Positions 14,900 to 41,585 of a stretch of DNA of 42,774 nucleotides are shown one piece after another (positions within the stretch are counted from its first letter, which is position 1; each line of letters opens with the position of its first letter). The translations under genes were made by a program, and so were the position numbers. A model generated the notes under the pieces. That model was given only the letters and a program-made list of their open reading frames with translations, searched no databases and had not been told where the DNA came from. Location of the stretch: positions 1-42,774 of the forward strand of contig CANQFL010000003.1 in the NCBI GenBank assembly GCA_947598785.1, read 5' to 3'. Source of the stretch: an uncultured Clostridia bacterium. Its GTDB lineage: Bacteria; Bacillota; Clostridia; Christensenellales; UBA1242.

Positions 14900-14905
14900 T
14901 TAAGC

Positions 14906-15946: not shown

Positions 15947-15952
15947 TTATAT

Positions 15953-15996: not shown

Positions 15997-16013
15997 GAAT
16001 ATATTGTTTAATT

Positions 16014-17204
16014 CTATAACATAAAATCAGTATAAACTCCATAACCTTTTGTAGGGTCATTTAAAAAGACATGAGTAACAGCACCAACAATTTTTCCATC
16101 TTGCATAATTGGAGAGCCACTCATACCCTGAACAATACCACCTGTAAGTTCCAAAAGGCGTTTATCTTTTACCCTAAAAACGATGCTTTTATCATTTGCA
16201 GATTTTTGATAATTTGCTTTAATAATTTCAATATCATATTCTTCACGAATACCACTAACACTTGAAACTATCTTTGCAGCACCCATTTTAACTCCTAAAC
16301 GTCCCCCAATTTTAGCTGTTAAATTTTCATCTACAAGATTATCTATTTCATTTAAAACACCTTTAATTCCAAATTTGGAGTTACTAATAATAGTTCCCTT
16401 GCTTTTATCAGACGCTACAAACACACATCTAAGTTCTCCAGGGTCATTTTTCTTTCCTTTATCAATGCCAATCAAGTTACATTCAAAAACATTTCCTTTA
16501 GCAACAGGAATGACGCTACCACTGTTTAACTCTACTATAGGGTGTCCCAAAGCACCATATTCAAAAGTGTTTTTATTTACAAAAGTCAAAGTACCAATTC
16601 CAGCAACATCGTCTTTAACCCAAATACCAAGTTTTAAATCACCATTTTCATCTTTAATTGTTTTTACAAGCGTTTTATAAGGTTTATTTTTTCGAATAAA
16701 CTCAACTTCAACCTCCTCAGGTGTTTCTTTAATATAATCAGAAAAACTTTCTAAGGAAGATAATTCTTGTCCATTTATTTTAGTGATTATATCACCCTCT
16801 TTAAAAATATTTCCATTCTCTTCACTAAGTACAATAGCCCCATCTGTACAAATAGATAAGCCAATAGGCACACCACCAACATAATATTCATCATCATTAG
16901 AAAGTCTTACATCAACTTTTTTTATAGGAATAAATCCAAATAATTTAAAGACTATTTCCCCCTGTTTAACCTTTTGACCACCAACAGTTTTTTCTCTTTC
17001 AACTAATTCACTTTTAAAAGCACCAAACCTTCCACTTTGATTAGCAATTTCCACATCTTCATACCCTGTCAAGAAACCATTTTCAAGTCCAGATAGTTCT
17101 TGCAGAGGAGAGATTATAGAGGTAAATAACAAAAACACAATTAAAAATGTGACTATACAAAAATATTGTTTTTTCATAACCATAGTTTTTGTAGAATTTT
17201 TCAT
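16014..17204 (-). CDS. spoIVB: Stage IV sporulation protein B (S55 serine peptidase with PDZ domain)
   Basis: GIGTLTF, YGALGH, TGGIVQGMSGSPI, GAVTHVF, DPTKGYG. Confidence 0.95.
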   Translation of the reverse strand: MKNSTKTMVMKKQYFCIVTFLIVFLLFTSIISPLQELSGLENGFLTGYEDVEIANQSGRFGAFKSELVEREKTVGGQKVKQGEIVFKLFGFIPIKKVDVRLSNDDEYYVGGVPIGLSICTDGAIVLSEENGNIFKEGDIITKINGQELSSLESFSDYIKETPEEVEVEFIRKNKPYKTLVKTIKDENGDLKLGIWVKDDVAGIGTLTFVNKNTFEYGALGHPIVELNSGSVIPVAKGNVFECNLIGIDKGKKNDPGELRCVFVASDKSKGTIISNSKFGIKGVLNEIDNLVDENLTAKIGGRLGVKMGAAKIVSSVSGIREEYDIEIIKANYQKSANDKSIVFRVKDKRLLELTGGIVQGMSGSPIMQDGKIVGAVTHVFLNDPTKGYGVYTDFML

Positions 17205-17213
17205 AATATACTT

Positions 17214-17843
17214 TTAAAGATTACTATTTAAAAGAAAGGAGTAATTTTCAAGTTCTTTACGCAACTCTTTACAATTAGGACAAATCCGTTGAACTTCTCT
17301 CCAAAATATAGGTTTATGATTCATATATTTGCTATGACAAAGTTCATGACAAATAACGTATTTAACAAGATTTTCAGGTAAAACTAATAATTTCCAATTA
17401 AGTTTAATACAACCATTTACATTATAACTCCCCCAAATTCTAACTGAATTTAAAGGTTTAATGTCTTTATATTTTAAATTACTTCCTTCTGAAATCTCCT
17501 TAGTTAAATTAATCAAATAATCAAAATGAGAAAGATAAAACTCTTTTATTGCTTTACTTTTTTGTGCTTCACTCATTTCATCAAAATGTTCGATTAGATT
17601 ATTTTTTCTATCTATCTTTTTTCCATGAAGATAAATAAAATTATTAAAATCAAAAGAACAAGAAAATTCTTGTTTTTCTTCCATTTTTCTCGCAACTCTA
17701 TCTAGCCACCTTGTCTTGCTTTTAATAAATTCATTCACCCTTTTATCACTTATATGTAAAGGTACTTTAAGAACAGCCTTTTCACAACTCAATACTTTAA
17801 GTATTATACTTTTTCTTTTTTCTTTTATAATTTCAATATTCAT
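17214..17843 (-). CDS. YgjP-like / M48-type zinc metalloprotease (DUF45)
   Basis: WGS, LNWKL, YVICHELCH (HExxH), NH...FW; likely start MNIEII at 17843. Confidence 0.85.
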   Translation of the reverse strand: MNIEIIKEKRKSIILKVLSCEKAVLKVPLHISDKRVNEFIKSKTRWLDRVARKMEEKQEFSCSFDFNNFIYLHGKKIDRKNNLIEHFDEMSEAQKSKAIKEFYLSHFDYLINLTKEISEGSNLKYKDIKPLNSVRIWGSYNVNGCIKLNWKLLVLPENLVKYVICHELCHSKYMNHKPIFWREVQRICPNCKELRKELENYSFLLNSNL

Positions 17844-17938
17844 ATTTTGATTATACCATTTTATTATTAAAAAGCCAAAATATAACAATAACCAAATAAA
17901 ATATTTTTATTTACATAATTTGTTAAATAAGCAAATTT

Positions 17939-18026
17939 TGCATAATACACAACATATTGTGTTTTAAATCAACATACTACTCATTATATGTTATATTATG
18001 CAATAAAAAATTTTTGCATAATACCT
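17939..18026. repeat. Two tandem 32-bp palindromic elements (copies B1 and B2) plus a half-site
   Basis: TGCATAATACAC-AACATATT-GTGTTTTAAATC (17939-70), AACATACTACTC-ATTATATG-TTATATTATGCA (17971-18002), TGCATAATACCT (18015-26). Confidence 0.7.
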
Positions 18027-18037
18027 ATTAAAAAAAT

Positions 18038-18066
18038 TTGACAATTTTATTTCAAAAAGATATAAT
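18038..18066 (+). promoter_or_regulatory. Consensus SigA promoter for the PadR-like gene
   Basis: TTGACA (18038-43), 17 bp spacer, TATAAT (18061-66); GGAGA RBS before ATG at 18088. Confidence 0.8.
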
Positions 18067-18087
18067 TTCAATATAGGAGAATTGTAT

Positions 18088-19746
18088 ATGGCATTCAATT
18101 CAAATGGACAAGTTCAATATTTAGTTCTTGACAGTCTTAAAGAAGGTTCTAAATATGGCTTAGAGATTATTGAATATATTTCTAAAAAAACTGGTGGAAA
18201 CTACATTATGAAAAAGCCTACCCTTTATTCATGTCTAACCAGAATGGAAAAGAAAGGATATGTTTCTTCATCTTTTTGGGGAGAAAGTGAATTAGGTGGC
18301 AAAAGGCACTACTATTCAATAACAAGCTCTGGGAAAAACACACTTGAAGAACTTGAAAAGGAATTTGCTAATGCAAACTACAATTCATTATCTTTAGAAG
18401 ATGAAAAACCGGAACAAACTCAGTCCCCTATTTTCTTACAACAAGATAATTTGTTTAATTTAGTTAAATCAGAACCAAAAGAAAAATCAATACAACAAGA
18501 CGAAAATAATGATGATACACTTGAAAATCAAATTGATATCTTTTCTTTGCAAGAAAACACCTTAGAAGATGACCAAAACAGCCAACAAGATGATACAGAC
18601 AAAGATAAAATTGAATATTATAAATCCATTCTTGAACAAGATACAAAAAAAGATGATGCAAAATTTTTAGACAAAGAAGAAGGTTTATCTATTGAAGAGG
18701 AAGAACAAAATAAACGTCTTTACGACACTTCAAATGAGTTAAAAAAATATCGCAAAAAGAAAAGTTTTTCTGAAAATCAAATTGAAATGGCTGTAGTTTA
18801 TGATAGTGCAGAAGAACATGAAATGCAAAGAGCTAGAATAGAAGAACTTAAAAAATCTATGCTAGAAATAAAAAACGGCCATATTCCACATGAAGAAAAT
18901 ACAAATCCAATACAATCATCAAATCAACCAGAAAATGACAATTTAATTTTTAATCAAGAAACAATAGAGCAAAGCGAAAAAATTAATGATGATGCAATAT
19001 TGATAACAAACCCAAGAATTTCAAGCAATGAGATTCCTATTCAAAAGAAAATTACCCCTCCTAATATTGAAGTTAATGTATATGACAGAAATTTGCCAGC
19101 TCCAAAAAGAAATGCTAGTTTAGAGCCAACTTATAAGGATATGATGGCAAAGTTATTTGAACACAAACGCGAAACAAAAAAAGAAGAAGAAAAAATAAAC
19201 ACACCTCCTGTTCAAAGTAGCGAAAATACTGATGAAGTAGATAGTTTTGTAGATTATTCTTCACTAAAATCTTATTATAATGGACATGGCATAGAATTTA
19301 AGGAATACAAAAAATCTTATGTTGAGAGAAATCATAACACAAATTTTTTAAATTTAATTGCATCTGTATTTCTTTTCCTACTTTCAGGTATTAGTAGTGC
19401 TATTCTTTTTGGAATTATTAGTGCAGCAAATTGTTTGCAACCTAGTTCAAATTTCTTATTTTATACTATACCAATTTTATTCTTTATATATGTAGTTTAC
19501 ACATTTATTAGATTTCAATTGTATCCAAGTAAAAAGGCCGGCATGAAATACACAAGTTTAGTTTATTGGGCAATATTTATAGTTGGTATAATAGCCATAT
19601 TTATAATAGATTTAATTTGTGGAATGCAATTTGAAACAATGTCATTATACTTAACACCTATTTTAGTCCCAATATTTGCATTATTAATTGCTGTTCCAAT
19701 ACACTATTATACTCGAAAATATTTATATAATAAGTTTTCAAAATAA
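18088..19746 (+). CDS. PadR-family wHTH fused to a long acidic linker and about 4 C-terminal TM helices
   Basis: N-terminal KYGLEII...PTLYSCLTRMEKKGYV...GGKRHYYSIT (PadR); E/D/N/Q-rich middle; hydrophobic C-terminal ~130 aa. Confidence 0.8.
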   Translation: MAFNSNGQVQYLVLDSLKEGSKYGLEIIEYISKKTGGNYIMKKPTLYSCLTRMEKKGYVSSSFWGESELGGKRHYYSITSSGKNTLEELEKEFANANYNSLSLEDEKPEQTQSPIFLQQDNLFNLVKSEPKEKSIQQDENNDDTLENQIDIFSLQENTLEDDQNSQQDDTDKDKIEYYKSILEQDTKKDDAKFLDKEEGLSIEEEEQNKRLYDTSNELKKYRKKKSFSENQIEMAVVYDSAEEHEMQRARIEELKKSMLEIKNGHIPHEENTNPIQSSNQPENDNLIFNQETIEQSEKINDDAILITNPRISSNEIPIQKKITPPNIEVNVYDRNLPAPKRNASLEPTYKDMMAKLFEHKRETKKEEEKINTPPVQSSENTDEVDSFVDYSSLKSYYNGHGIEFKEYKKSYVERNHNTNFLNLIASVFLFLLSGISSAILFGIISAANCLQPSSNFLFYTIPILFFIYVVYTFIRFQLYPSKKAGMKYTSLVYWAIFIVGIIAIFIIDLICGMQFETMSLYLTPILVPIFALLIAVPIHYYTRKYLYNKFSK

Positions 19747-19764
19747 GGGTATCCCCCTTATTTT
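19740..19764 (+). terminator. Intrinsic terminator of the PadR-like gene
   Basis: AAAATAAGGG-tatcc-CCCTTATTTT followed by a T-rich tract. Confidence 0.7.
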
Positions 19765-19784
19765 ATTTTTATTTTTATTTTTTT

Positions 19785-19914
19785 GAATAATATCTTATTT
19801 TATGGAACATAATACTAATAAGTTAAGTTACTTTTCAATAAAGTTCTTAACTTAAAAACGAAAAGAGATGCTTTAGTTCTTGAAGAACAAAATAACAATC
19901 TCTTTTCATTTTTT
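19785..19914 (+). ncRNA. Candidate sigmaG-dependent small RNA (promoter plus two hairpins)
   Basis: GAATA-N18-CATAATA (19785-19814), hairpin 19819-19854, hairpin 19860-19907 with T tract; no ORF. Confidence 0.4.
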
Positions 19915-20546
19915 TAATCAATAGGTTTATCATTTATTTCCAAAACTCTATGGCTTTTTATTTTGTTTATGATTGAAAGAATTATATTAAATAATACAAA
20001 CACAACTAAAATGATTAACGAAGCAATTAAGATGTAAAAAGCAGAATTTTCAAATAATAAACAAAGCAATAAAACAACTGAACAAGAAACCAATTCACCT
20101 AAAACTATTGATAAGAAACAATGCCAAAATTTCATATTAGTAAGACCAGAAATTATACTCCCTGTATAAACTCCAGTCATTGGTAAAGGAATAGCTACAA
20201 AAGTTCCAAGGAAAAAACATTTTTGGAATAAACTCGTTTTATTTCCTAACCTATCAAAATTTTTCTTATATTTGGATTTAATTTTTTCAATATACTTTTC
20301 CTGAATAAATCCTACCGTTTTATTTTTTATTTTACGAGTCACCCAAAAGACAATTGGAATAGGGATTATACTTCCCACAAATGCTATTAAAAATGCTAAC
20401 CATGGAGAAAGAACAGCACTTCCCCATACTTGAACTGATAAAGCAAAAGGAATAGCAATTTTACTCTCAATTCCTGGACATAATGCTACTAACAATACAG
20501 CAACAAAAGCACAGGTTGAAAGATTATCTACAAGGAATTCAAGCAT
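19914..20546 (-). CDS. Small multi-drug export family membrane protein (COG2426-like)
   Basis: PGIESKIAIP and FVAIPLPMTGVYTG signature motifs; several TM segments. Confidence 0.85.
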   Translation of the reverse strand: MLEFLVDNLSTCAFVAVLLVALCPGIESKIAIPFALSVQVWGSAVLSPWLAFLIAFVGSIIPIPIVFWVTRKIKNKTVGFIQEKYIEKIKSKYKKNFDRLGNKTSLFQKCFFLGTFVAIPLPMTGVYTGSIISGLTNMKFWHCFLSIVLGELVSCSVVLLLCLLFENSAFYILIASLIILVVFVLFNIILSIINKIKSHRVLEINDKPID

Positions 20547-20564
20547 AGAAGCCTCCTTACTTAA

Positions 20565-20593
20565 ATGTATGTAGAATAAAAATTATATATTAC
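20565..20593 (-). promoter_or_regulatory. SigE-like mother-cell promoter
   Basis: GTAATAT-N15-CATACAT upstream of an AAGGAGG RBS, just after the recN terminator. Confidence 0.45.
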
Positions 20594-20618
20594 AAAAAAA
20601 AAGAGCATCAGCTCTTTT
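20594..20618 (-). terminator. Terminator at the end of recN
   Basis: AAAAGAGC-N4-GCTCTTTT hairpin with a long T tract on the minus strand. Confidence 0.6.
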
Positions 20619-22269
20619 CTTCTAACAATTTTTTTGCATGTTCAATAGCAGTTTGAGATACATTTTGATTTCCATCTATAAGTTTTGCAATCTCAGTAAC
20701 TATATCATTTCCTTTTAAAGCATTTACAACAGAAATAGTATTATTATCTATAACCTTTTTTTCTACTAACAAAAATTCATTTCCCCTAGAAGCTACAACT
20801 GGCGTATGCGTAATACAAATAATTTGAGTGTATTTAGAAATATTAACAAGTTTTTCTGCAAGTTTACCTGCTGTATGCCCACTTATACCAGAATCAATTT
20901 CGTCAAACACTATTGTTTGCACATGGTCTTTGTCTAACATAACATTTTTAAAAGCCAATAGAAGTCTAGATAATTCACCTCCAGAAGCAGTTTTATTTAA
21001 ATCTTTTACATCTTGTCCAACATTTGCTGAAAATAAAAATTTTACATTATCATAACCATTTTTGGTAGGTTTATCTTTTTCAAAACAAACGCTAAACCTA
21101 GTCCCCTTCATTTGTAAATCATCTAATTCTGATATAATGCGTTTTTCAAAATCAACTGCATTATTTTTTCTTACCACAGATAATTTATCACATAAAGCCA
21201 ATAATTCTTCTTTTTTAATAATTTCTTCTTTTTGTAAATTATTTAATATTTCTTGACTATTCTCAAGTTCATTAAGTTGACTTTCTAATTTACTTTTATA
21301 ATCTAAAATATCCTCAATAGATTTCCCATATTTCTTTGAAAGACTTTTAATTAAATCCAATCTTGAGTCAATTCTTTCAAGTTCGTTCGCATCAAAATCT
21401 GTATTTTGTCTAACATTTTCTAAAGTATCTACAACGTCTTTAATTTCATAATAACAGTTTTCAATTCTTTCACGGCAATTTTCAATTTCTTTAAAATTTG
21501 ATAGATTTGAAAGCTCATTTTTTGAATCATGTAGAAAAGAAGTAACACAACCATTTTGCTCATCTAATTTATTTAAAACATTAGAAACTTTTTCATATAT
21601 ATTTTCAGCAGAAGAAATAAAATCATAACGTTCTCTCAAAGTTTCATCTTCACCTATAATTAAATTAGCATTTGTAATTTCGTTAATTTGGAAAGTTAAA
21701 AGGTCTTTAGTTCGCTCTCTTTCAGTTTCATCACCACCTAAATTGGAAATCTTATCCAAAATAGTTTTATATTCATCATAAGCAATTTCAACTTGTTTCT
21801 TTAAAGTTTCCACTTCAACGCCAGCGAACTTATCTAGAATTAAAAGATGATTATTCTCATTTAAAAGTCCAACACTATCATGTTGACCACAAAAATCTGT
21901 CAAAATAGAAGATAAATCTTTCAGCATTTTAGTAGTTGCAGGAAAACCATTAATCTTTATAGAAGATTTCCCGTCAATATTAAGAGTCCTAGAAATAATC
22001 AATTCCCCATCAAAATCTATATTCCAATCTTGTAGAAGATTTAAAGCTTCTTTAGAAATATCTGTAAAGACGGCATCAACTCTCATTAAATTTTCATTTG
22101 AACGTATAAGAGATTTATCAGCCTTAGCGCCAAGAGAAAAACTAAGCGCATCAATAATAATACTTTTACCTGCACCAGACTGACCTAATATACAATTAAA
22201 ACCGTTTTTGAAATCAATATTTTGTTTTTTAATAAGAGCAACATTAGATAAAAAAATAGATGAAAGCAT
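20608..22269 (-). CDS. recN: DNA repair protein RecN
   Basis: Walker A GQSGAGKS, coiled coil, ASGGELSR signature, FDEIDSG, ITH; likely start MLSSIF at 22269. Confidence 0.95.
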   Translation of the reverse strand: MLSSIFLSNVALIKKQNIDFKNGFNCILGQSGAGKSIIIDALSFSLGAKADKSLIRSNENLMRVDAVFTDISKEALNLLQDWNIDFDGELIISRTLNIDGKSSIKINGFPATTKMLKDLSSILTDFCGQHDSVGLLNENNHLLILDKFAGVEVETLKKQVEIAYDEYKTILDKISNLGGDETERERTKDLLTFQINEITNANLIIGEDETLRERYDFISSAENIYEKVSNVLNKLDEQNGCVTSFLHDSKNELSNLSNFKEIENCRERIENCYYEIKDVVDTLENVRQNTDFDANELERIDSRLDLIKSLSKKYGKSIEDILDYKSKLESQLNELENSQEILNNLQKEEIIKKEELLALCDKLSVVRKNNAVDFEKRIISELDDLQMKGTRFSVCFEKDKPTKNGYDNVKFLFSANVGQDVKDLNKTASGGELSRLLLAFKNVMLDKDHVQTIVFDEIDSGISGHTAGKLAEKLVNISKYTQIICITHTPVVASRGNEFLLVEKKVIDNNTISVVNALKGNDIVTEIAKLIDGNQNVSQTAIEHAKKLLEEKS

Positions 22270-33912: not shown

Positions 33913-34254
33913 TTATAATTTTAACATAGCAATAATTGCTTCAGTTTGTTCTTTTCCACCAAAAAGTTTATAAATGAAATCAGGTGCAGCTAAAACAATA
34001 ACATAAAAAACAATAGCAACAATCAAAACAATGAAGAAAACTGTTTTTAATGGATTAGGACTTCCTGCAAAATTTACTAATGCAAAACAGAAAATAATTG
34101 CAATGCCCCCAAATCTAACTATAAAATTAAAAATTTCAGTAAAGCCACCCATATCAGGATTCCAATTTGTTTTTACTCTCAAAACATCTACAATAAGGAA
34201 ACAGATATATGCAACCGAAACCATAGATAGAATTGTATAAAGTAATTTTTTCAT
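33913..34254 (-). CDS. Hypothetical membrane protein (3 TM), first gene of the polA unit
   Basis: AAGGAG RBS and its own TTGTTT-17-TATTAT promoter downstream of the capsid-operon terminator. Confidence 0.7.
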   Translation of the reverse strand: MKKLLYTILSMVSVAYICFLIVDVLRVKTNWNPDMGGFTEIFNFIVRFGGIAIIFCFALVNFAGSPNPLKTVFFIVLIVAIVFYVIVLAAPDFIYKLFGGKEQTEAIIAMLKL

Positions 34255-34335: not shown

Positions 34336-34377
34336 AAAAAAAAGAAGAATCACGCTAATTTTGCGCAATTCTTCTTT
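34336..34377 (-). terminator. Terminator closing the capsid/holin operon
   Basis: AAAGAAGAAT...ATTCTTCTTT stem with a T tract on the minus strand. Confidence 0.65.
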
Positions 34378-34403
34378 GTATATTTATACATTATTTATTA
34401 TAT

Positions 34404-34661
34404 TTATTCACTTTTGTTTTTATCTATATCTTCATCATCAGATGTATCATCACTTTTGTCATTATTATCAGATTTACTATTCATACTTACGATACCTAAA
34501 ACAACAAATAGACCAGCAATAGACATAATACAATCTTCAACAATTTTGTTTTCAACTGTAAAGCCAAATAATTTACCAAATGAAGTTAATAAAATAACAA
34601 TAGCAGATGACAAGCTGACCCAAAAACTATAGTTCTTGAATTTATCAAAGAAGTTCTTCAT
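34404..34661 (-). CDS. Phage holin (phiLC3/holin_1-like, 2 TM)
   Basis: KFKNYSFWVSL...LGIV pattern, acidic C-terminal tail; start 34661 fits the GGAG spacing. Confidence 0.7.
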   Translation of the reverse strand: MKNFFDKFKNYSFWVSLSSAIVILLTSFGKLFGFTVENKIVEDCIMSIAGLFVVLGIVSMNSKSDNNDKSDDTSDDEDIDKNKSE

Positions 34662-34878
34662 ATTCATCTCCATTTTTAAGAAAATCTTTTATTTCTTTTA
34701 AATCTTGTTTAACATCATTTAAAGTTTGCAAAAGAACAGTTAATTCTTGAATTGTTTGTTGGTATTTTGTTTCACGTTTAGAACTATCTTTAAGTTGATA
34801 ACAAAACAGCCAAACAAAGAGAATTGCGAACACGCCATTGCTTACCACAATGCTAATAATTTCATTCCAAATTTCCAT
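34645..34878 (-). CDS. BhlA/UviB-family holin-like protein
   Basis: SNGVFAILFVWLF...KDSSKRETKYQQTI: one TM plus coiled coil, typical of BhlA/UviB. Confidence 0.8.
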   Translation of the reverse strand: MEIWNEIISIVVSNGVFAILFVWLFCYQLKDSSKRETKYQQTIQELTVLLQTLNDVKQDLKEIKDFLKNGDEYEELL

Positions 34879-34965
34879 AACATTTCAAATTCCTTTTGAT
34901 TGTTTTATAATCATCGATTAAGATTTTTTTTAAAAAGAAATTAGTCATATCAACAAAATGACAAA

Positions 34966-36465
34966 TCATTGCAAAACATCAAAAACAATCATAGGTTTTT
35001 GAATATCACATTGATTTTCATTAGTTTTAAAAGAAAATTGGAAATTTTTTCCATAAATACAAACAGAAATACGTTGTTCATTAGGATTTCCAGTGAATTT
35101 ATAAACCTTAGTTTCTTCGTCAGATTTGATTTCAATTTCACAGTTAAATTTAGAGATTATAATGATTTCCTTAATTTTTTTACGCTTTGATTTATAACCT
35201 AAGTCTGTAAAAAAAGAAGTCCAACATTTATCAGTAACATTTTCAAAAATCGAGCCATTATAAACAAGTTCCCCTACCCTTTGTTTAAAATTATCGGTAT
35301 TGAAACACGCACAAAGTTTACTAAAATAAGGGATATCAATAGCTAAAATTTTTAATATATCAACACCCCTTAAAAGATTCAATTTAAAATTGTTAATATC
35401 TATTTCAAACAAAACATTATTTACATAACTTTGATTTTCGCAACCGACAACATTATCGTCATTAAAATTACATTTAGTAGCGTAATAATATTTTCCATTG
35501 AGGCAAGCAGAAGAAGCAAATTTATTATCAAGATTTTTAAAATAGACATCATAATCAGAAGCTATTTTATTAACTGAATTTCCATTGAAAGCATAAAGAC
35601 CATCTCTAGTCATAAAAAAGATATTTTCTCCACAAAGACAGACTGAATTTTCATAAATTCTAGAAGCAGAATTATAAAGATGAGTGAAGGAAAAATCTTT
35701 AGTAGAAGAATAAATAGAAATTTTAGTGATGCCATATTCTCTGAATAAATATACATAATCATTGAAGGCAATAACTTTATTGAAAGAACCGACATTATCT
35801 AAAAATTCAATAGTGTTATTTTCTTCATCTTCCCATTCTAAAAGGTTTGTATTACTTTTATAAATGAGCATATTACGGTTTGTGTTTGTAATTCCAAAAA
35901 ATTTATCATAATGTACAGCACATGAAATTATAGGTGGAATATTTTCATATAGAGAAGCTGTTACGCTTGTAATAGCAAGCATACCCTCCTTAGAAAAGAA
36001 AAGGCAAGCATCTTTACCACTGATACGATAAAGGCATTGATAAATAGGAAAGCTTTTTAAGGCAGTAGATTGAGGCCAAACCATACCCTCAAACTCATCA
36101 ATCAGAGGTAAACTCCAAATTTTGAATTTAGTATCAATCAGCATAAGGTTATAGAAATAAGAATTTGAGTCAGGTTGAAACCATCTATCAAGCCAAATTC
36201 CCTTAATAACATCAATATCTTCTGCAAAATTCGCAGTATGGCAATCTTGTAAATTATCAATAGAAGCTGGAATTGCCAAGTCCTGAAAACCTAGACCTGT
36301 TTTTAACGCGCCATTTACATAAGAAAGGTTATAAAAAGATTTACATTCGTTAGCATTTTTAAGTTGGTCGTCTAAATCAGAAACGACACCAGCGTCAAAG
36401 ATAGAGAAAATCAAATTTTTTTCATTTGATTTTTTATGTTTTTTAATATTCTTGTAAAAAATCAA
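34966..36465 (-). CDS. Putative podovirus-type tail nozzle / head-closure protein (P22 gp10 or T7 gp12-like)
   Basis: N-terminal FDAGVV...NECKSFYN...GALKTGLG resembles nozzle proteins; beta-rich; TTG start coupled to the upstream stop; position after the adaptor gene. Confidence 0.5.
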   Translation of the reverse strand: MIFYKNIKKHKKSNEKNLIFSIFDAGVVSDLDDQLKNANECKSFYNLSYVNGALKTGLGFQDLAIPASIDNLQDCHTANFAEDIDVIKGIWLDRWFQPDSNSYFYNLMLIDTKFKIWSLPLIDEFEGMVWPQSTALKSFPIYQCLYRISGKDACLFFSKEGMLAITSVTASLYENIPPIISCAVHYDKFFGITNTNRNMLIYKSNTNLLEWEDEENNTIEFLDNVGSFNKVIAFNDYVYLFREYGITKISIYSSTKDFSFTHLYNSASRIYENSVCLCGENIFFMTRDGLYAFNGNSVNKIASDYDVYFKNLDNKFASSACLNGKYYYATKCNFNDDNVVGCENQSYVNNVLFEIDINNFKLNLLRGVDILKILAIDIPYFSKLCACFNTDNFKQRVGELVYNGSIFENVTDKCWTSFFTDLGYKSKRKKIKEIIIISKFNCEIEIKSDEETKVYKFTGNPNEQRISVCIYGKNFQFSFKTNENQCDIQKPMIVFDVLQ

Positions 36466-37022
36466 AACCAACCTCTTTTAGGTAGTAAATGTTCACCCTT
36501 TTTACTCCCAATAACAAATAAAGATTGTTTAAACCTTTCTTCCCAAATTTCAGCATCTTCACTAATTCCATCAATTAGAAGGTACTCACTAGCAACACCA
36601 TAGGCATAAATTCTACCAGTAAGACCTCTAACTTTTTCAACTTCATCATCAATATTAAGCACATCAGGCAAATAACTATAAGTAATAGAAGAAGCATTAC
36701 CAACAATTTCTATGTAATTAGAAAAAAGTTTAAATTTAAGATTAACACCATAGCGATTTTTAACAGAATAAACATTTATTAAATTTTTGCTTAAAGAAGA
36801 AAAATTTAATATAGAATTTTTCACAGAAATATTTTCATTAGTAAGAAAAGGGATATATTCACTTGCAATTTCTTGATTAACAAGATTAAAACATCTTAAC
36901 ATTATGTCAATTTTTTCTTGTTCTCTTTCTGAAAAAGTAGGACTTTCAGTTGACAGTTTTTTTTGAAGTTCTTTTTCTCCGACAAAATCACAAACCAAAC
37001 AAATAATTTCTTTAACTTTCAT
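36462..37022 (-). CDS. Putative head-tail adaptor (P22 gp4 or T7 gp11-like)
   Basis: 186 aa, helical termini around a beta insert (...YSYLP...YAYGVASEY...WEERF); position between capsid and nozzle genes. Confidence 0.5.
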   Translation of the reverse strand: MKVKEIICLVCDFVGEKELQKKLSTESPTFSEREQEKIDIMLRCFNLVNQEIASEYIPFLTNENISVKNSILNFSSLSKNLINVYSVKNRYGVNLKFKLFSNYIEIVGNASSITYSYLPDVLNIDDEVEKVRGLTGRIYAYGVASEYLLIDGISEDAEIWEERFKQSLFVIGSKKGEHLLPKRGWF

Positions 37023-37332
37023 AAAGTTTCTCCTTGAAATTATTTAAAACATTTTTAATGTTTGCCTTTTCAAGTTTTTGATTATAAGAATCAATTTCTT
37101 TAAAAATTTCATCGCTATTTTGAACTCTAGTTTTGAGAACATAAAAGACGGAACGTTCATCTAAACAATCAAAAGGAAGCGTAAGACAATAGCTTCCTTT
37201 TTTTTGACCCGAATGATGAAGTTCAAATTTATTCGTATCCAAATTTCTCATAATAAAATAATCGCCATCAATAGCCTTAATTCTGTCAACTATTCCAAGA
37301 CAATCACTTTTTATTTCAAATAATTTTTTCAT
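37012..37332 (-). CDS. Hypothetical phage-type protein
   Basis: Overlaps or abuts both neighbours within the capsid operon. Confidence 0.7.
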   Translation of the reverse strand: MKKLFEIKSDCLGIVDRIKAIDGDYFIMRNLDTNKFELHHSGQKKGSYCLTLPFDCLDERSVFYVLKTRVQNSDEIFKEIDSYNQKLEKANIKNVLNNFKEKLYES

Positions 37333-37335
37333 AAT

Positions 37336-38499
37336 TTATTCTTTTATAGAAGTTGGAATAGAAACAACATGACCAACACCAGAAGGTTTATGGCAAAGAA
37401 GTTCAGTATATTTAACCAAAGTAGCAGAATAAGAAGGGAAAGAATCATTTTGTTTAAGGACTCTACCGGCTTCATCTTCAAGCCATTTCCAATCGCCAAG
37501 TTCGTAGAAAACCAAATCATCAGTATTGATAAAGTAGCATTCACCTGCGTCAACTTGTTTAGTAGGAACAATAGGAATACCGAAATGAGTTAAAACTTTC
37601 ATACCATCTTCAAGAGTAGTAAATTCAATATTTTTATTATATAAAGTTAAATATTTTTGATAAAGGTTTTTAAGTTCATAAGAGCAGTTAATAAAATTAA
37701 CATTAGTCCCCTTCATTTCAAGTTCGTCAATAATACCTTGCACATATTCTTGGTCAAAAGCATCTGTTTCTTTAGCAGTAATGTTTGTAGCGTTAATATT
37801 AGGTTGAGCACTTCTTGTTACGCCGTACAAAGTAGGATTACTAACAATACCCTTAAGACCGATAATTTCGCTATCTTTAGAGCCATGCATATACATAACG
37901 TCACTAGTAGCAATAGTTTCTAAAGTATCAAGAGTAATAACTTTAGTAGAATAATCAACACTTTTGATTTTAACATTAGAAACTTTAAGGGAAGAATTAT
38001 CTTTAGAATAAATATCAACATACATTCCAGGAGCAATTCCACCGACCTTATCGACAGTAATTGTAGATTCAGTGTTAGTGAGAGTTGCTAAAGTTCCACT
38101 TCCATCTCCGTAAAGCATTCTAGAGAGATTAAAGATGCTAGCTTTTAAAAGAGAATCCATACCGTCTTGAAGAAGGTTAACGAAGGAATTAACATCTGAA
38201 GAAGAGCATCTAATGGCCTTATCGCTAATTTCAAATCTTCCATATAAATTTTTAAGTGGAGCAACGAAAGAAAGGTAAGGAGTTTGAACTCCGTCAGGTA
38301 ATTTAGAAGTTTCAGAACCTGCCATAATACCCCCATTGATACCGATAGGAGCTACAACACGAATTTCTTTACCTATAATATTTCTATTGCTTCTTTTAAT
38401 TCTGCTGAAAAGTGGATTAGTTTTAGTGTTAATTTGGTCAGCAATAACACCCAAATAAACATCTTTAAGAACATTTTCTGCATTAGATAATGTAATCAT
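37336..38499 (-). CDS. Phage major capsid protein (HK97-type fold inferred)
   Basis: 387 aa; E-loop-like GIMAGSETSKLP, KNLYGRFEISDKAI, spine helix ending LYGDGSG, GIPIVP; follows portal and scaffold. Confidence 0.85.
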   Translation of the reverse strand: MITLSNAENVLKDVYLGVIADQINTKTNPLFSRIKRSNRNIIGKEIRVVAPIGINGGIMAGSETSKLPDGVQTPYLSFVAPLKNLYGRFEISDKAIRCSSSDVNSFVNLLQDGMDSLLKASIFNLSRMLYGDGSGTLATLTNTESTITVDKVGGIAPGMYVDIYSKDNSSLKVSNVKIKSVDYSTKVITLDTLETIATSDVMYMHGSKDSEIIGLKGIVSNPTLYGVTRSAQPNINATNITAKETDAFDQEYVQGIIDELEMKGTNVNFINCSYELKNLYQKYLTLYNKNIEFTTLEDGMKVLTHFGIPIVPTKQVDAGECYFINTDDLVFYELGDWKWLEDEAGRVLKQNDSFPSYSATLVKYTELLCHKPSGVGHVVSIPTSIKE

Positions 38500-38511
38500 A
38501 AAAAACTCCTT

Positions 38512-39135
38512 TTAATTTAATAAATCAATCACCACCTTTTTAGCTTCTTCAAAAGTGTCAGGTTTTTTCAAAGTAGGTTTAGTAACTTTTTCTCCACTAT
38601 TTGAAGAAATAACGATAGGTGGTTTATCGCCCAAATTTTTTAAATAGTTTTCAACGACAACTTTTTGGACTTGGTCGTCATTTAAAATAAGATTTTTGAA
38701 AAGAGGTTCATTGATACGATTTGGAGCGCACAATTTTTCATACAAAATACCAGCCCAAACTTTTTCAATATCCTCTTCCGAGCATTGACTTTCATTCAAA
38801 CGTGAACGAATTTCATTCACATAAGAACAAGCTTCCTGATTTTTAGAAAGGAACTCATTGAAAGCGTTTTGTTTTTTATCAAAAGATTGGCTTTCAAGAG
38901 TTTTATCTTTCTCCAATTCAGATAGTCTTTGGCTTTTACGAGTAAATTCAGCTTGAAGATTATTATAAGCTTCAAACAAGTCGTTTACATTTTTAAATTT
39001 ACCAATAGGAACGCCCTTTTCTGCTTCACCTGTGACAGCTGATAAGTTTTCTTCAATCTGAGGAGAGCCTGAAGAGTTTTCTTCAAAAGAAGGTTGAACA
39101 TCAATTGGTTGTTCTCCTAAATTTTCATTTTCCAT
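38512..39135 (-). CDS. Capsid scaffolding/assembly protein
   Basis: Acidic N-terminus, GKFKNVNDLFEAYNNLQAEFTRKSQ coiled coil as in podovirus scaffolds; between portal and capsid. Confidence 0.75.
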   Translation of the reverse strand: MENENLGEQPIDVQPSFEENSSGSPQIEENLSAVTGEAEKGVPIGKFKNVNDLFEAYNNLQAEFTRKSQRLSELEKDKTLESQSFDKKQNAFNEFLSKNQEACSYVNEIRSRLNESQCSEEDIEKVWAGILYEKLCAPNRINEPLFKNLILNDDQVQKVVVENYLKNLGDKPPIVISSNSGEKVTKPTLKKPDTFEEAKKVVIDLLN

Positions 39136-39136
39136 A

Positions 39137-40969
39137 TTAAACTCCTTTAAATTTTTTATGATTACGGATATGTTCTAAAAATAAATTTTCGATTTTTTTA
39201 TCAAAATCAGAATTATATAAATTTTTAAGCATAAAAGCGATATGTTGATTAATATGTAACTCATGGTTATCAATTTCTTTAACATCAACATAAATGCCAT
39301 TAGACAATTTAGTATTTTCAACATCTGCATTTTTTGAATGTAATTCATTTAAATCAACAGAAGAATCCCAAACGCCGAAACCGATATTTTCCAAAATTTT
39401 ATTTTTCATAGAGCTAGAAATTTTACCATTTTCATCAGAAAGTAAACCTTTATCTAAAAGTGTAAAAATCATATTTCTACGTTGTGCTAAAGAATCATTA
39501 GTTTCATTATCTGTTTCAAATTGTACATCATCACTAGTGATGTCGCTTCCCTTAAAATAGGTAACATCTAAATCACCGTTGTCGCCTACAATTTTAATAA
39601 GTCTAGGGAATGTAGCAAATTGCTTATAAAGTCTAAGAATATGTTTAGCTATAGTTTTGACAGCAGTTTTCATACTATCAGTAGTAAATTTCAATCTAGT
39701 TTCATTTTCATCAATTAAAAGTTCTAGAGCGACACCACTCATAGCAGAAATATGTTCCATATTACCAATTTCGCTAGTACCACATAAAGTAGTAAATTCT
39801 TGTAAAAGATGTTCTTCTTCTTTTTCAAAATCACTAGGAACAGAATCACCATTAAGGAAAGAAGGAGAATTAGAGCCTTGTCTATAAACTAAAATTTTAC
39901 CTGGAGCAAGGCCCTCTTCCTCAAGATTATCAATATCCACACTACCGTCCTCAACAGCAAGAACACCCATAGTCAAACGGTTAAGATATTCATGTTTACG
40001 ATTTTTAACAGCATTATAAGCTCTTTGAATAGGGATAAGGCGAGAAATCATGCTAACGCCCCAGAAATTACCGACTTCTTGATTACAAATTTGTTTAACA
40101 AAAGGAAATTCACGTTTACCATCAATTCCATTAATATAAGGCATATCGCCGTTAAAAACAAGTTTATCACCAGCGACAATGATTAACTGACCATTAGGGT
40201 AATTTTCATTAGGTTTAACATATTTTTCAATAACAATAGCCGAATTTTTCTTAGTAGTTTCGATAAGTTTAGTAACCATACCAAAATAACCAAGTCCCCC
40301 TAAAGAACTAGAAGAGCCATCGAGAGAATAGACATTAATGTCTTTACCTTGAACATCGATACCGAACATTTGTTTAATTTGTTCAACAGAATAGGCTTTG
40401 GCATGGATTAAACTTTGGCAATCTTCCAAATTTTCGTGAGTAGAACTATCAGGATATATTTCAAAAGGAGAACAGACAGAAATTTCAACATCACCTGTCT
40501 TAATTTTATTACCATTTTCCTCAATAGCTACCACTTGTCCCAAATTAGAATTCCAAGTGATTTTATAGAAACTAGTACCACAAATTTCACTCCATTTAGT
40601 AGCTTGATTAATTTTAGAAGTGATGTTCATTTTGCTAGTAACAGAATTTAAAATTTTTTTACCAACTTTCGCCGTATAAATATCAGATTCGTCATTAGTA
40701 GCAGGAACAATATACATTTTAGGCTTAATGTTAGAAAGTTTTGAAAGTCTAATATCAATTAAAGGTGCGATATGGTTAAAGACTTCTCTTTCCTGCCAAA
40801 AATATTGTTTATCAATTTCTCTTACCAAGCCACCATACCCCACATCGCAAAATTGATTACCCATGTAAAAATTCATATTAAGTTGCCATTGACTATCAAA
40901 GCATTTTCTATCAGCAACACGACTTTCAAAATCGGCTAAAGTTTGCTTAACAATATCGTTATCTTTCAT
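39137..40969 (-). CDS. Phage portal protein (large, P22/podovirus-like)
   Basis: 610 aa; FYMGNQ, VFNHIAP, CGTSFYKITW, SPFEIYPD, LIPIQRAYN, SGVAL; first large gene of the head module. Confidence 0.8.
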   Translation of the reverse strand: MKDNDIVKQTLADFESRVADRKCFDSQWQLNMNFYMGNQFCDVGYGGLVREIDKQYFWQEREVFNHIAPLIDIRLSKLSNIKPKMYIVPATNDESDIYTAKVGKKILNSVTSKMNITSKINQATKWSEICGTSFYKITWNSNLGQVVAIEENGNKIKTGDVEISVCSPFEIYPDSSTHENLEDCQSLIHAKAYSVEQIKQMFGIDVQGKDINVYSLDGSSSSLGGLGYFGMVTKLIETTKKNSAIVIEKYVKPNENYPNGQLIIVAGDKLVFNGDMPYINGIDGKREFPFVKQICNQEVGNFWGVSMISRLIPIQRAYNAVKNRKHEYLNRLTMGVLAVEDGSVDIDNLEEEGLAPGKILVYRQGSNSPSFLNGDSVPSDFEKEEEHLLQEFTTLCGTSEIGNMEHISAMSGVALELLIDENETRLKFTTDSMKTAVKTIAKHILRLYKQFATFPRLIKIVGDNGDLDVTYFKGSDITSDDVQFETDNETNDSLAQRRNMIFTLLDKGLLSDENGKISSSMKNKILENIGFGVWDSSVDLNELHSKNADVENTKLSNGIYVDVKEIDNHELHINQHIAFMLKNLYNSDFDKKIENLFLEHIRNHKKFKGV

Positions 40970-41178
40970 ACACGCTCCTTTTTATTTTTTTTAAATGGTG
41001 CATCGATAGGTTTAGGCACCATAAGTTTAGAAAAACATTCAAACATTTTTTTCATACAATCTTCACAAAAAACCAAATCACGCCTGATAAAACCTTTAGT
41101 GCTAAAACTATATTTAGCCAAGTTTTTACATCCATAAAAATCACATTTTAGTTGATTTTTACAAATATCAATTCTCAT
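40966..41178 (-). CDS. Small Cys4 (putative Zn-binding) protein
   Basis: CDFYGC...CEDC, AAGGAGG RBS, stop overlaps the portal ATG. Confidence 0.7.
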   Translation of the reverse strand: MRIDICKNQLKCDFYGCKNLAKYSFSTKGFIRRDLVFCEDCMKKMFECFSKLMVPKPIDAPFKKNKKERV

Positions 41179-41455
41179 TATCATCAACCTCCTTATCTTT
41201 TAAAAGTTGTAAAAGACGATTTTTTTCAGCAATAAGTTGTTCATCAGTCATATGAGTGAAGTCATCATCTGAATTAGATTGTTCAAGGAGAAACCTTAAA
41301 GCGTTCAAGTCAGGAGGATTAATTTTTTTAGTGATTTTACGCTTAGAAAGTAAAGGTTTACCGTTTTCATCACTGACATATTCCTCAATAATTTCATCAC
41401 TTTCAAAACCGAGAGCTTTTTTAATAAGAGCTTGTTTAATATCTTCTTCGTTCAC
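41168..41455 (-). CDS. Terminase-small-subunit-like protein lacking the N-terminal HTH
   Basis: ALIKKALGF...KKINPPDLNALRFLL resembles the ALLKRALGY...VPPDTTA.IFWL oligomerisation core of Firmicute phage TerS; GTG start after AAGGA. Confidence 0.55.
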   Translation of the reverse strand: MNEEDIKQALIKKALGFESDEIIEEYVSDENGKPLLSKRKITKKINPPDLNALRFLLEQSNSDDDFTHMTDEQLIAEKNRLLQLLKDKEVDDNEN

Positions 41456-41585
41456 AATGAATCCTTTTATTTACAACTTTTGTCACAATAATAGACGGAA
41501 AAAAAGACGAAAACAATAAAGAGTGCCAAAATAATCACGCACAAAAAAATAAAGAAAAAATAGAATGTATTTGTAGAGGGAAAAA

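What the first reader, a model, noticed from the sequence alone, without database searches (positions are those of the whole stretch)
34336..41455. Stand-alone podovirus-like head operon with no packaging motor or mobility genes: candidate domesticated capsid or GTA-like system
Seen in sequence: ten intact, co-oriented ORFs, mostly overlapping or a few bases apart (TerS-like, Cys4 protein, portal, scaffold, capsid, hypothetical, adaptor, nozzle, BhlA holin, second holin), ending in their own terminator. They sit between a polA unit and an ABC transporter, and I saw no pseudogene debris, att repeats, integrase, repressor, replication, large terminase, tail fibre or endolysin gene. Established: decaying prophages usually show frameshifts and remnants, whereas gene transfer agents (RcGTA, VSH-1) and tailocins are streamlined, host-controlled clusters whose accessory genes can lie elsewhere. 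Inference: this is a host-maintained particle-forming module in a spore-forming clostridium. It could be a split-locus GTA or a DNA-free capsid or cargo container released through holins.
Basis: partly seen in the sequence, partly recalled or inferred. Interest (0 to 1): 0.88.

Follow-up and report, generated by a model that had tools for sequence, protein, structure and literature searches.

The report
Host-kept podovirus-like gene transfer agent candidate
This is a phage-derived head and short-tail gene set that a whole family of tiny-genome gut clostridia has inherited vertically and kept intact, with its DNA-packaging motor encoded elsewhere in the genome, so it most likely builds gene-transfer-agent-like particles rather than being a dead prophage.

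Summary
The ten co-oriented ORFs at 34404-41455 (minus strand) and their terminator are real. Portal, capsid and both holins are confirmed by profiles, adaptor and nozzle by fold. The "TerS-like" ORF is an N-terminally truncated small terminase. Both flanks are host genes.

"No packaging motor" holds only for the window. An intact TerL lies on contig C6 beside a sigma-like late activator, and in 58 of 61 genomes of the genus. The capsid gene was found in 24 of 24 genus genomes, in 147 of 151 family genomes (58 of 58 genera, 0.6-1.6 Mb), and near-universally in several other families of the order. Relatives carry one contiguous module: activator, TerL, TerS, portal and so on to the holins.

Element trees match the polA tree. 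dN/dS is 0.08, against 0.06 for polA.

Best reading: an ancient, domesticated, multi-locus GTA-like particle system. Domestication is well supported. DNA transfer is inferred, not shown. The closest precedent is the podovirus-like FpGTA of Faecalibacterium (2026). Homology to it could not be tested. I found no report of this element.

The parts
41514..41530 (-). Candidate promoter element (TTTGGCA-N-TTG type) about 60-75 nt upstream of the first gene of the head operon
   Evidence: The same pattern lies 65-86 nt upstream of the ters95 orthologue in 9/15 genus loci and 70-77 nt upstream of the activator gene p175 in 4/12 loci, plus G000 contig C6. It occurs 0 times upstream of seven internal genes (cys73, portal, scaffold, h106, adaptor, nozzle, second holin) and once, 1/13, upstream of the capsid gene. 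It is a low-information motif (0.29 matches per kb per strand in the background) and was derived from these sequences, so it is a lead only.
41168..41455 (-). ters95: truncated small terminase (TerS) lacking the N-terminal part
   Evidence: phrog_309 terminase small subunit, E 0.0036. BLASTP E 4e-8 to residues 64-129 of the 157-aa TerS (phrog_309, 6e-63) of the prophage-like contig L096. The missing N-terminus of that TerS carries weak HTH hits. Orthologues are present in 12/12 genus loci.
40966..41187 (-). cys73: small protein with four invariant Cys (C-x4-C ... C-x2-C), function unknown
   Evidence: No family hit. The four Cys are invariant in 13 genus genomes. Conserved in position in 12/12 genus loci.
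39137..40969 (-). Portal protein (P22-like)
   Evidence: PF16510, 1.9e-20; phrog_156, 8e-36. dN/dS 0.029 in the closest species pair.
38512..39135 (-). Probable scaffolding protein (by position between portal and capsid)
   Evidence: No significant family hit. Conserved in position in 12/12 genus loci. The assignment is an inference.
37336..38499 (-). Major capsid protein
   Evidence: phrog_14242 major head protein, 1.9e-45. A single intact copy in 24/24 genus genomes and 147/151 family genomes. dN/dS 0.084.
37012..37332 (-). h106: conserved small protein between capsid and adaptor (head-completion or connector role guessed)
   Evidence: No family hit. Orthologues in 12/12 genus loci and in most relatives. 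dN/dS 0.056.
36462..37022 (-). Head-to-tail adaptor of podovirus type
   Evidence: AlphaFold model, pLDDT 89. Foldseek top hits are adaptor chains of phages KHP30, DEV, Pa223 (TM 0.67), SU10, N4 and T7 gp11.
34966..36471 (-). Tail nozzle (beta-propeller hub) of podovirus type
   Evidence: AlphaFold model, pLDDT 87, pTM 0.87. Foldseek hits: Pa223 tail 9nwi_Y (E 6.6e-21, TM 0.70), then VP1, SU10, P22 gp10, Sf6 and T7 gp12. The sequence profile hits the SU10 chain 7z47_G at E 8.9e-5.
34645..34878 (-). BhlA-family holin
   Evidence: PF10960, 1.9e-15; phrog_2429, 2.9e-15. One N-terminal hydrophobic segment.
34404..34673 (-). Second holin (two hydrophobic segments)
   Evidence: phrog_297 holin, 1.1e-11; PF04531, 22.1 bits against a cut-off of 22. 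Hydrophobic segments at 17-40 and 43-67.
34341..34377 (-). Intrinsic terminator closing the operon
   Evidence: A 15-pair stem with 5 G-C pairs followed by a T run, 27 nt after the holin stop codon.

Best explanation
The window holds the head, neck and lysis operon of an ancient domesticated podovirus-derived particle system: a GTA-like 'viriform'. The host lineage inherits it vertically.

The system has at least two loci in this genome.
- Locus A is on contig C6: a sigma-like late activator (p175), a divergently transcribed membrane protein (p264), the large terminase TerL, and a large surface-anchored protein (p804).
- Locus B is this window: truncated TerS, a Cys4 protein, portal, scaffold, capsid, h106, adaptor, nozzle, two holins and a terminator.

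Proposed mechanism (inferred):
1. The activator switches on both loci in a fraction of cells.
2. Portal, scaffold and capsid build procapsids.
3. TerL fills heads with host DNA. Its ATPase and nuclease motifs are intact. Its TerS partner has lost the N-terminal DNA-recognition part, so packaging would start without sequence specificity.
4. h106, adaptor and nozzle close the portal into a very short tail.
5. The two holins release the particles by lysis.

Shown here: gene identities, split organisation, family-wide retention, co-divergence with the host, and strong purifying selection.
Not shown: particle production, what DNA is packaged, head capacity, and delivery to other cells.
For: Gene set.
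- Portal, capsid and holins are identified by profiles.
- Adaptor and nozzle are identified by high-confidence folds matching podovirus tail proteins.
- ters95 aligns to the C-terminal two thirds of a full-length TerS.

Motor.
- One intact 486-aa TerL (Terminase_6N 7.6e-16, Terminase_6C 4.1e-4; phrog_2 9.4e-29) lies on C6.
- It is 51-60% identical to the TerL that sits directly upstream of the homologous cluster in other families.
- An intact TerL of this family was found in 58/61 genus genomes.
- 213/486 residues are invariant in 13 genomes, including the Walker A and B and nuclease acidic motifs (motif names are recalled).

Architecture.
- The contiguous order p175, p264, TerL, ters95, cys73, portal, scaffold, capsid, h106, adaptor, nozzle, (DUF7934), BhlA, holin occurs in relatives.
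- TerL is adjacent to the head genes in 10 of 62 judged genome loci and 20 of 25 judged IMG/VR loci.
- In the genus the two parts lie 6-7 kb (G003, G067, G070), 33-50 kb (G005, G023, G011, G006) or about 144 kb (G008) apart.

Retention.
- Capsid gene: 24/24 genus genomes, 147/151 family genomes, 58/58 genera, in genomes of 0.6-1.6 Mb.
- Order: 140/301 genomes, bimodal by family, for example 16/16, 15/16 and 13/16 against 0/16 in six families.
- Class: 28/400 genomes.

Vertical descent.
- The head-operon tree and the polA tree share 7/10 splits, including all six splits with 100% bootstrap.
- The TerL-locus tree and the polA tree share 8/10 splits.
- Pairwise divergence correlates with polA divergence, r 0.68-0.96.

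Selection, closest species pair.
- dN/dS is 0.080 overall: TerL 0.011, portal 0.029, capsid 0.084, nozzle 0.079.
- For comparison, polA is 0.063 and abcA 0.061, with similar dS.

No mobility or replication genes.
- None was found in the cluster or beside it.
- There are no flanking repeats and no tRNA gene.

Precedent.
- FpGTA of Faecalibacterium is a podovirus-like GTA with a TerS lacking an obvious DNA-binding domain and a second locus about 125 kb away.
- The same paper reports GTA-like packaging in Christensenellaceae MAGs without naming the loci (PMC12946183, section 9 read).
Against: - No particle, packaged DNA or expression data exist for this lineage.
- No tail fibre or receptor-binding protein and no endolysin was identified in either locus. 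I did not search the genome for endolysin or fibre families.
- DUF7934, which follows the nozzle in many relatives, was over its cut-off in 0/61 genus genomes. Only short C-terminal remnants of about 100 aa remain in some. The particle of this genus may therefore be less complete than the ancestral one.
- TerL was not found in 3 of 61 genus genomes (G013 94%, G016 89% and G064 84% complete), by profile or by protein query. Two of them keep an intact head operon.
- One 92%-supported split of the head tree is absent from the polA tree.
- The TerS truncation rests on one pairwise alignment plus weak HTH hits that are below Pfam cut-offs.
- Co-regulation of the two loci rests on a low-information motif.
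- The own genome is only 69.7% complete, so further loci or a helper prophage could be missed.
Confidence: 0.6

Rival explanations
1. The particles are made and may package DNA, but they do not serve gene transfer. They would act as PBSX-like killer or bacteriocin particles, or as a programmed lysis and DNA-release device.
For: - One holin is of the BhlA family, which PHROGs files under bacteriocin production or immunity.
- No receptor-binding protein was identified.
- The distal DUF7934 gene has been lost in this genus.
- The FpGTA authors leave the same possibility open for their element (PMC12946183, section 10 read).
Against: - TerL, portal, adaptor and nozzle, the DNA packaging and exit path, are under the strongest constraint (dN/dS 0.011-0.079). 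That constraint is hard to explain if the DNA is irrelevant.
- A podovirus-type tail has no contractile sheath with which to kill (general knowledge).
Confidence: 0.2
2. It is a capsid-forming phage satellite (cf-PICI-like) or another mobile element that depends on a helper phage.
For: - It encodes its own TerS, TerL, portal, capsid and connector, with no fibre found.
- Many related contigs are filed as viral in IMG/VR: 61 loci.
Against: - No integrase, replication or repressor genes lie in or beside the loci.
- It has its own adaptor and nozzle.
- It sits at a fixed chromosomal site next to the same ABC transporter in 12/12 genus loci.
- The loci lie up to about 144 kb apart.
- It co-diverges with polA.
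- Only one Terminase_6N match was found in the own genome, so no related helper was seen.
Confidence: 0.07
3. It is a decaying prophage remnant with no function.
For: - The lysogeny, replication and fibre modules are missing.
- DUF7934 is lost or truncated in the genus.
- TerL was not found in 3/61 genomes.
Against: - All ten genes are intact in 12/12 genus loci.
- The capsid gene is present in 147/151 species of a family with genomes of about 1 Mb.
- dN/dS is 0.08, like housekeeping genes.
Confidence: 0.03
4. It is a DNA-free capsid compartment or protein container.
For: The window itself holds no terminase large subunit.
Against: - An intact, highly constrained TerL with ATPase and nuclease motifs is kept elsewhere in 58/61 genus genomes.
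- Portal, adaptor and nozzle are retained.
Confidence: 0.03

Closest known systems
FpGTA of Faecalibacterium prausnitzii (Borodovich et al., Nat Commun 2026, PMC12946183; abstract, sections 9, 10 and 26 and searched passages read)
   Same: - Both are phage-derived clusters in a gut clostridial chromosome with TerS, TerL, portal, scaffold, capsid and short-tail proteins.
- In both, the TerS has no obvious DNA-binding domain.
- Neither has replication or integration genes.
- Both have more than one locus (about 125 kb apart in one Faecalibacterium strain).
- Both are near-ubiquitous in the host genus.
   Different: - Here TerL precedes the TerS-like gene in the canonical order, whereas the paper places TerS upstream of TerL.
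- Here the holins close the head operon, and no second locus with fibre, RBP and endolysin was found.
- Here the second locus carries TerL and an activator.
- Retention here spans a whole family and several families of another order (Christensenellales, going by a relative's record title and PMC8035907).
- Sequence homology to FpGTA could not be tested, because no FpGTA sequence was reachable with these tools.
- The capsid profile matched only 28 of 400 genomes of the class.
- FpGTA has EM, proteomic and packaged-DNA evidence. This element has none.
RcGTA-type gene transfer agents of Alphaproteobacteria (knowledge recalled; reviews seen only in search listings)
   Same: - Domesticated and vertically inherited.
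- Multi-locus, under purifying selection, and without replication or integration genes.
- The TerS lacks sequence-specific DNA binding.
- The host keeps DprA, ComM and ComEC. These genes serve uptake in RcGTA recipients; that role is recalled.
   Different: - RcGTA is siphovirus-like with a long tail, and its proteins are unrelated in sequence.
- The adaptor model here matches RcGTA neck chains only weakly (Foldseek E 0.009-0.1).
- The host phylum and cell envelope differ.
P22/SU10/Pa223-like podoviruses and Arthrobacter phage Jasmine
   Same: - P22-like portal.
- Adaptor and nozzle folds.
- Gene order: terminase, portal, scaffold, capsid.
- The nearest deposited phages are actinobacterial podoviruses, with 23-27% capsid identity and 19-25% portal identity.
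   Different: - No replication, lysogeny, tailspike or fibre, ejection-protein or endolysin modules.
- The element cannot propagate as a unit, because its loci are separated in the chromosome.
Capsid-forming PICIs (cf-PICI phage satellites; recalled, cited within 10.64898/2026.07.08.737213, passages read)
   Same: Own packaging and capsid genes in a small cluster of about 10-12 kb.
   Different: - cf-PICIs carry integrase, regulators and replication genes, lack tail genes and are mobile.
- This element has none of the first three, has an adaptor and a nozzle, and co-diverges with its host.

Membership tests
Gene transfer agent (viriform) | Phage-derived head, tail and packaging genes encoded in the cellular chromosome | tested here: met
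   Portal, capsid, adaptor, nozzle, TerS-like gene, holins and TerL.
Gene transfer agent (viriform) | No replication, integration/excision or lysogeny-control modules; not self-transmissible | tested here: met
   None was found in or beside either locus. No att-like repeats and no tRNA gene. The own genome is only 69.7% complete.
Gene transfer agent (viriform) | Vertical inheritance with the host and purifying selection | tested here: met
   The element trees and the polA tree share 7/10 and 8/10 splits. dN/dS is 0.080 against 0.063 for polA. Present in 147/151 family genomes.
Gene transfer agent (viriform) | Genes spread over several loci, or too long to fit in one particle | tested here: inconclusive
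   The loci lie on different contigs here and 6 to about 144 kb apart in relatives. Head capacity is unknown.
Gene transfer agent (viriform) | Particles carry more or less random host DNA of uniform size | not testable with these tools
   Only DNA metagenome runs held part of the stretch. No particle data are available.
Gene transfer agent (viriform) | Delivery of the DNA to recipient cells | not testable with these tools
   This needs culture or mesocosm experiments.
FpGTA lineage (Faecalibacterium) | Sequence homology of capsid and portal to the FpGTA proteins | not testable with these tools
   No FpGTA sequence could be fetched by name. Indirectly, the capsid profile matched only 28/400 genomes of the class.
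FpGTA lineage (Faecalibacterium) | Second operon with tail fibre, RBP, holin and endolysin | tested here: not met
   The holins end the head operon. No gene was conserved after the holins across relatives, apart from q113 and polA in the window's clade. The second locus carries TerL and an activator instead.
Functional or recently defective P22-like prophage | Contiguous genome with lysogeny and replication modules and a tailspike or fibre | tested here: not met
   Host genes lie on both sides. The same 7-kb cluster is present in 12/12 genus loci.
Capsid-forming PICI satellite | Integrase, replication initiator and repressor; no tail genes | tested here: not met
   No such genes were found. 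Adaptor and nozzle are present.

The most novel reading that the evidence does not exclude
This would be an independent, order-scale GTA lineage of Bacillota. A podovirus was domesticated before the radiation of several Christensenellales families. It has since been kept as a near-core gene set even in genomes of about 1 Mb, where it may be the main route of recombination that offsets genome decay.

In this genus it has been remodelled. The motor locus was detached, the distal tail gene was lost, and two co-located membrane-anchored surface proteins (p264, p804) may act as dedicated receptors or kin-recognition partners of the particle. The GTA-like packaging already seen in Christensenellaceae MAGs (PMC12946183) would be its activity.
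Probability: 0.35. Interest if true: 0.85.

Novelty: new member of a known kind. Interest (0 to 1): 0.74.

Why it matters
Few GTAs are known, and until 2026 none was known from gut commensals or with a short tail. The evidence here points to a second gut clostridial candidate that is much older and more widely fixed than FpGTA.
- It was found in 147 of 151 species of a family of uncultured bacteria with genomes of about 1 Mb, and in about half of the sampled order.
- Retaining about 12 kb of phage-derived genes under housekeeping-level constraint in such reduced genomes argues for a real host benefit.

It also gives concrete loci to test against published particle-DNA data sets in which Christensenellales showed GTA-like packaging but no genes were named.

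There is a practical warning too. Virus-prediction pipelines file these host loci as viral contigs: 61 IMG/VR loci were found.

Tried and rejected
- The look-up of sequencing runs listed 7 rabbit-gut DNA runs from 2 studies, each holding at most 0.31 of the sampled words. No RNA holder was listed. I did not lay reads, because contigs of DNA runs cannot show expression or packaging.
- PDB sequence searches: the adaptor profile found nothing, and the capsid profile gave only weak hits, the best being 7f38_A at E 0.022.
- NCBIfam gave nothing useful for ten unknown proteins.
- The Atlas search of p264 gave only an SH3_3 lead, carried by 12-37% of members of the nearest clusters. For DUF7934 it returned only its own family.
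- A sigma-54 reading of the upstream TGGCAC...TTGC-like motif was rejected. By my count the spacing is one base longer than the canonical one in the two copies I counted by hand, G000 and L019 (output; the consensus is recalled).
- The motif pattern is common (0.29 per kb per strand) and absent upstream of BhlA in relatives (0/12). The apparent BhlA site in the window was therefore dropped.
- q113 (33913-34254) was considered as an eleventh gene and rejected. It travels with polA: it was seen only in the 4/12 genus loci that have polA, and it formed 16 co-occurring copies next to 15 polA copies.
- I looked for conserved extra genes after the nozzle or the holins across 141 related loci. None was shared widely, and none had a homologue elsewhere in the own genome that looked phage-like.
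- Endolysin, tail-fibre and other terminase families (Terminase_1, Terminase_3, GpA) were not searched in the genome.
- Homology to FpGTA was not tested.
- Supplements of PMC12946183 were not seen. They hold the list of GTA events and the proteomics, and may show whether the Christensenellaceae MAGs carry this element.
- 'Not in print' rests on the searches.

Full report
OBSERVATION

The window is the whole of contig C3 of a 1.22-Mb, 109-contig assembly rated 69.7% complete. On the minus strand, between 41455 and 34404, lie ten intact ORFs. They are joined by short overlaps or gaps of 1-12 nt, with one 87-nt gap before the lysis genes.

Profiles identify four of them:
- a P22-like portal (PF16510 1.9e-20; phrog_156 8e-36);
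- a major capsid protein (phrog_14242 1.9e-45);
- a BhlA holin (1.9e-15);
- a second holin (phrog_297 1.1e-11).

I folded the 501-aa and 186-aa proteins from alignments of orthologues. Both models are confident (pLDDT 87 and 89). Their best PDB matches are the nozzle and adaptor chains of podoviruses: Pa223, VP1, SU10, P22 gp10, Sf6, T7 gp12 and gp11, N4 and KHP30.

The 73-aa protein has four invariant cysteines. A 15-pair terminator follows the last holin. No direct repeats bracket the cluster and the window has no tRNA gene.

The neighbours are host genes. On one side are a small unknown gene that travels with polA, then PolI with its 5'-3' exonuclease, RuvX and PheST. On the other side is a divergently transcribed ABC transporter.

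THE MISSING MOTOR IS ELSEWHERE

A search of the genus with Terminase_6N found one intact TerL of about 480-500 aa in 58 of 61 genomes, including the window's own genome on contig C6.
- That protein has both terminase domains (phrog_2 9.4e-29).
- It is 51-60% identical to the TerL that sits immediately upstream of the homologous head cluster in other families of the order.
- 213 of its 486 residues are invariant in 13 genus genomes, among them the P-loop, the acidic Walker B stretch and the acidic nuclease motifs (the motif names are recalled).

Around TerL, three genes are conserved:
- A 175-aa sigma-like or late-activator-like protein is present in 12 of 12 genus loci (phrog_36 1.1e-6, phrog_248).
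- A divergently transcribed 264-aa protein with a signal peptide and a C-terminal membrane anchor is also present in 12 of 12.
- An ~800-aa protein with a signal peptide, glycine-rich repeats and a C-terminal anchor is present in 11 of 12.

THE ANCESTRAL LAYOUT

I examined 80 related genome loci and 61 IMG/VR loci. The recurrent order is: activator, p264 (opposite strand), TerL, ters95, cys73, portal, scaffold, capsid, h106, adaptor, nozzle, often DUF7934, then BhlA and holin.
- TerL is within 1.5 kb of the portal in 10 of 62 genome loci, and in 20 of 25 IMG/VR loci, that had enough upstream sequence to judge.
- 42 of the 62 genome loci show the window's arrangement, with the ABC transporter in place of TerL.
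- Holins were present in 56 of the 56 genome loci that could be judged downstream.

In the window's genus the two halves lie 6-7 kb apart in three genomes, 33-50 kb apart in four, and about 144 kb apart in G008. G008 is the window's sister in the polA and TerL-locus trees (bootstrap 69-85); the head-operon tree pairs the window with G003 instead, at 65%. The window's operon is thus the detached head and lysis part of a module of about 12 kb.

DUF7934 was over its cut-off in 0 of 61 genus genomes. Only remnants of about 100 aa remain between nozzle and BhlA in some.

ters95 IS A SHORTENED TerS

A 47.9-kb prophage-like IMG/VR contig (L096) carries a related head module with a 157-aa TerS (phrog_309 6.2e-63). 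The window's 95-aa protein aligns to residues 64-129 of that TerS (E 4e-8). The N-terminal part that it lacks gives weak helix-turn-helix hits.

By analogy with GTAs, loss of that part would remove sequence-specific initiation of packaging. The analogy rests on the text of PMC12946183, section 9, and on recalled RcGTA work. This step is inferred.

DISTRIBUTION

The capsid gene was found as a single intact copy as follows:
- Genus: 24 of 24 genomes.
- Family: 147 of 151 species genomes and 58 of 58 genera, all with genomes of 0.6-1.6 Mb.
- Order: 140 of 301 genomes. The split by family is sharp: 16/16, 15/16, 13/16, 11/16, 4/4 and 3/3, against 0/16 in each of six families.
- Class: 28 of 400 genomes. 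Hits outside the order are concentrated in one genus of another family.

One relative with 74% capsid identity is titled Candidatus Caccovivens sp.. A paper assigns that genus to Christensenellales, family UBA1242 (PMC8035907, passages read).

Deposited phages are distant. Thirteen records matched, with at most 27% capsid identity, and most are actinobacterial podoviruses.

DESCENT AND SELECTION

I compared 13 genus genomes.
- Pairwise divergence of every element protein correlates with polA divergence (r 0.68-0.96). Relative to polA, TerL evolves at 0.72 times the rate, portal at 0.95, capsid at 1.0 and nozzle at 1.5.
- The maximum-likelihood tree of the concatenated head operon shares 7 of 10 splits with the polA tree, including all six splits with 100% bootstrap. 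One 92% split is not shared.
- The TerL-locus tree shares 8 of 10 splits with the polA tree.

In the closest species pair, Nei-Gojobori dN/dS is 0.080 over all 14 genes (417 synonymous and 125 non-synonymous differences). By gene: TerL 0.011, portal 0.029, capsid 0.084, nozzle 0.079, adaptor 0.068. In the same pair, polA is 0.063 and abcA 0.061, and dS is similar.

These results exclude a decaying remnant and argue against a mobile element.

WHAT REMAINS OPEN

- No fibre, receptor-binding protein or endolysin was recognised. I did not search the genome for those families.
- TerL was not found in three genus genomes (84-94% complete), two of which keep the head operon.
- A shared upstream motif hints that the head operon and the activator gene use the same kind of promoter. 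It was seen in 9 of 15 and 4 of 12 loci at about the same distance from the start codon, in 0 loci upstream of seven internal genes, and in 1 of 13 loci upstream of the capsid gene. The pattern is weak and was derived from the same data.
- Only DNA metagenome runs held part of the stretch.

COMPARISON AND NOVELTY

The nearest described system is FpGTA of Faecalibacterium. It has a ten-ORF operon with a TerS lacking an obvious DNA-binding domain, TerL, portal, scaffold, capsid and short-tail proteins, plus a second operon about 125 kb away. Its particles measure 40 nm and carry about 8.5-9 kb of host DNA.

The same paper reports GTA-like packaging in Christensenellaceae MAGs without identifying genes (PMC12946183; abstract and sections 9, 10 and 26 read).

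The present element shares that logic but differs in three ways: gene order, the content of the second locus, and its much deeper retention. I could not test homology to FpGTA.

My searches found no description of this element. I could not see the supplements of the FpGTA paper.

I file it as a new member of the GTA kind. Domestication is well supported. Gene-transfer function has a probability of about 0.6.

Noticed in passing
Family relatives, e.g. G120:C4:70089-72444, G080:C2:8035-10367, G203:C27:4197-6544: At least 11 of the 151 family genomes carry two capsid genes in tandem: G080, G094, G120, G124, G137, G146, G166, G177, G197, G203 and G221. Three IMG/VR loci do the same. A duplicated major capsid gene in a domesticated head module is unusual.
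   Followed up: no
G000 contig C6: 20398-22812 (-), 24393-25187 (+); locus L038: TerL is flanked by two membrane-anchored surface proteins, each with a signal peptide, an ectodomain and a C-terminal transmembrane helix. p264 has an SH3_3 lead from the Atlas. p804 has glycine-rich repeats, evolves fast (1.8 times polA divergence) yet is constrained (dN/dS 0.09). p804-like genes also sit between TerL and the TerS-like gene in some other genera (L161, L178, L183). Their role is unknown; receptor and exclusion are guesses.
   Followed up: partly
window 6320-8936 (-); G000:C8:20899-21666: DprA and a ComM-like Mg-chelatase-family helicase lie side by side in the window. ComEC is kept in 5 of 5 genus genomes checked. 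DNA-uptake and processing genes thus survive in these genomes of about 1 Mb.
   Followed up: partly
window 14888-15946 (+): A tyrosine recombinase (Phage_integrase plus an N-terminal SAM-like domain) sits among host genes 19 kb from the cluster. It is probably a Xer-type host enzyme. I did not examine it further.
   Followed up: no
G023:C1:178332-178460, G007:C1:28220-28366, G047:C2:43876-44061, G068:C3:17301-17438, G055:C11:203796-203957: Five genus genomes carry an ORF of about 100 aa that matches only the C-terminal 50 positions of DUF7934. In G023 it lies between nozzle and BhlA; the other four were not placed. These look like remnants of a gene that is full-length in other genera.
   Followed up: partly
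Class-level sample, family f66, genus g145 (e.g. G524:C20:6220-7362): Outside the order, one genus with genomes of 1.3-2.1 Mb had the capsid gene in all eight listed genomes, with scores as high as within the order. This could be an old transfer or a taxonomic neighbour. Not examined.
   Followed up: no
L096 (IMG/VR contig of 47.9 kb), 1878-20808: This prophage-like relative of the module is larger. It has a full-length TerS, a 602-aa TerL, a 704-aa portal, extra Ig-domain and Hoc-like proteins, a 578-aa nozzle-region protein and a DUF7934 gene. It may resemble the phage ancestor.
   Followed up: partly
G013, G016, G064 (whole genomes): No TerL was found by profile or by protein query in these three genus genomes, although G013 and G016 keep an intact head operon. 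This could be assembly gaps (84-94% complete) or real loss.
   Followed up: partly
IMG/VR loci L051-L108: Most of the 61 'viral' contigs that carry this capsid are short host-like fragments holding just this module. Virus catalogues probably count this domesticated element as phage.
   Followed up: partly
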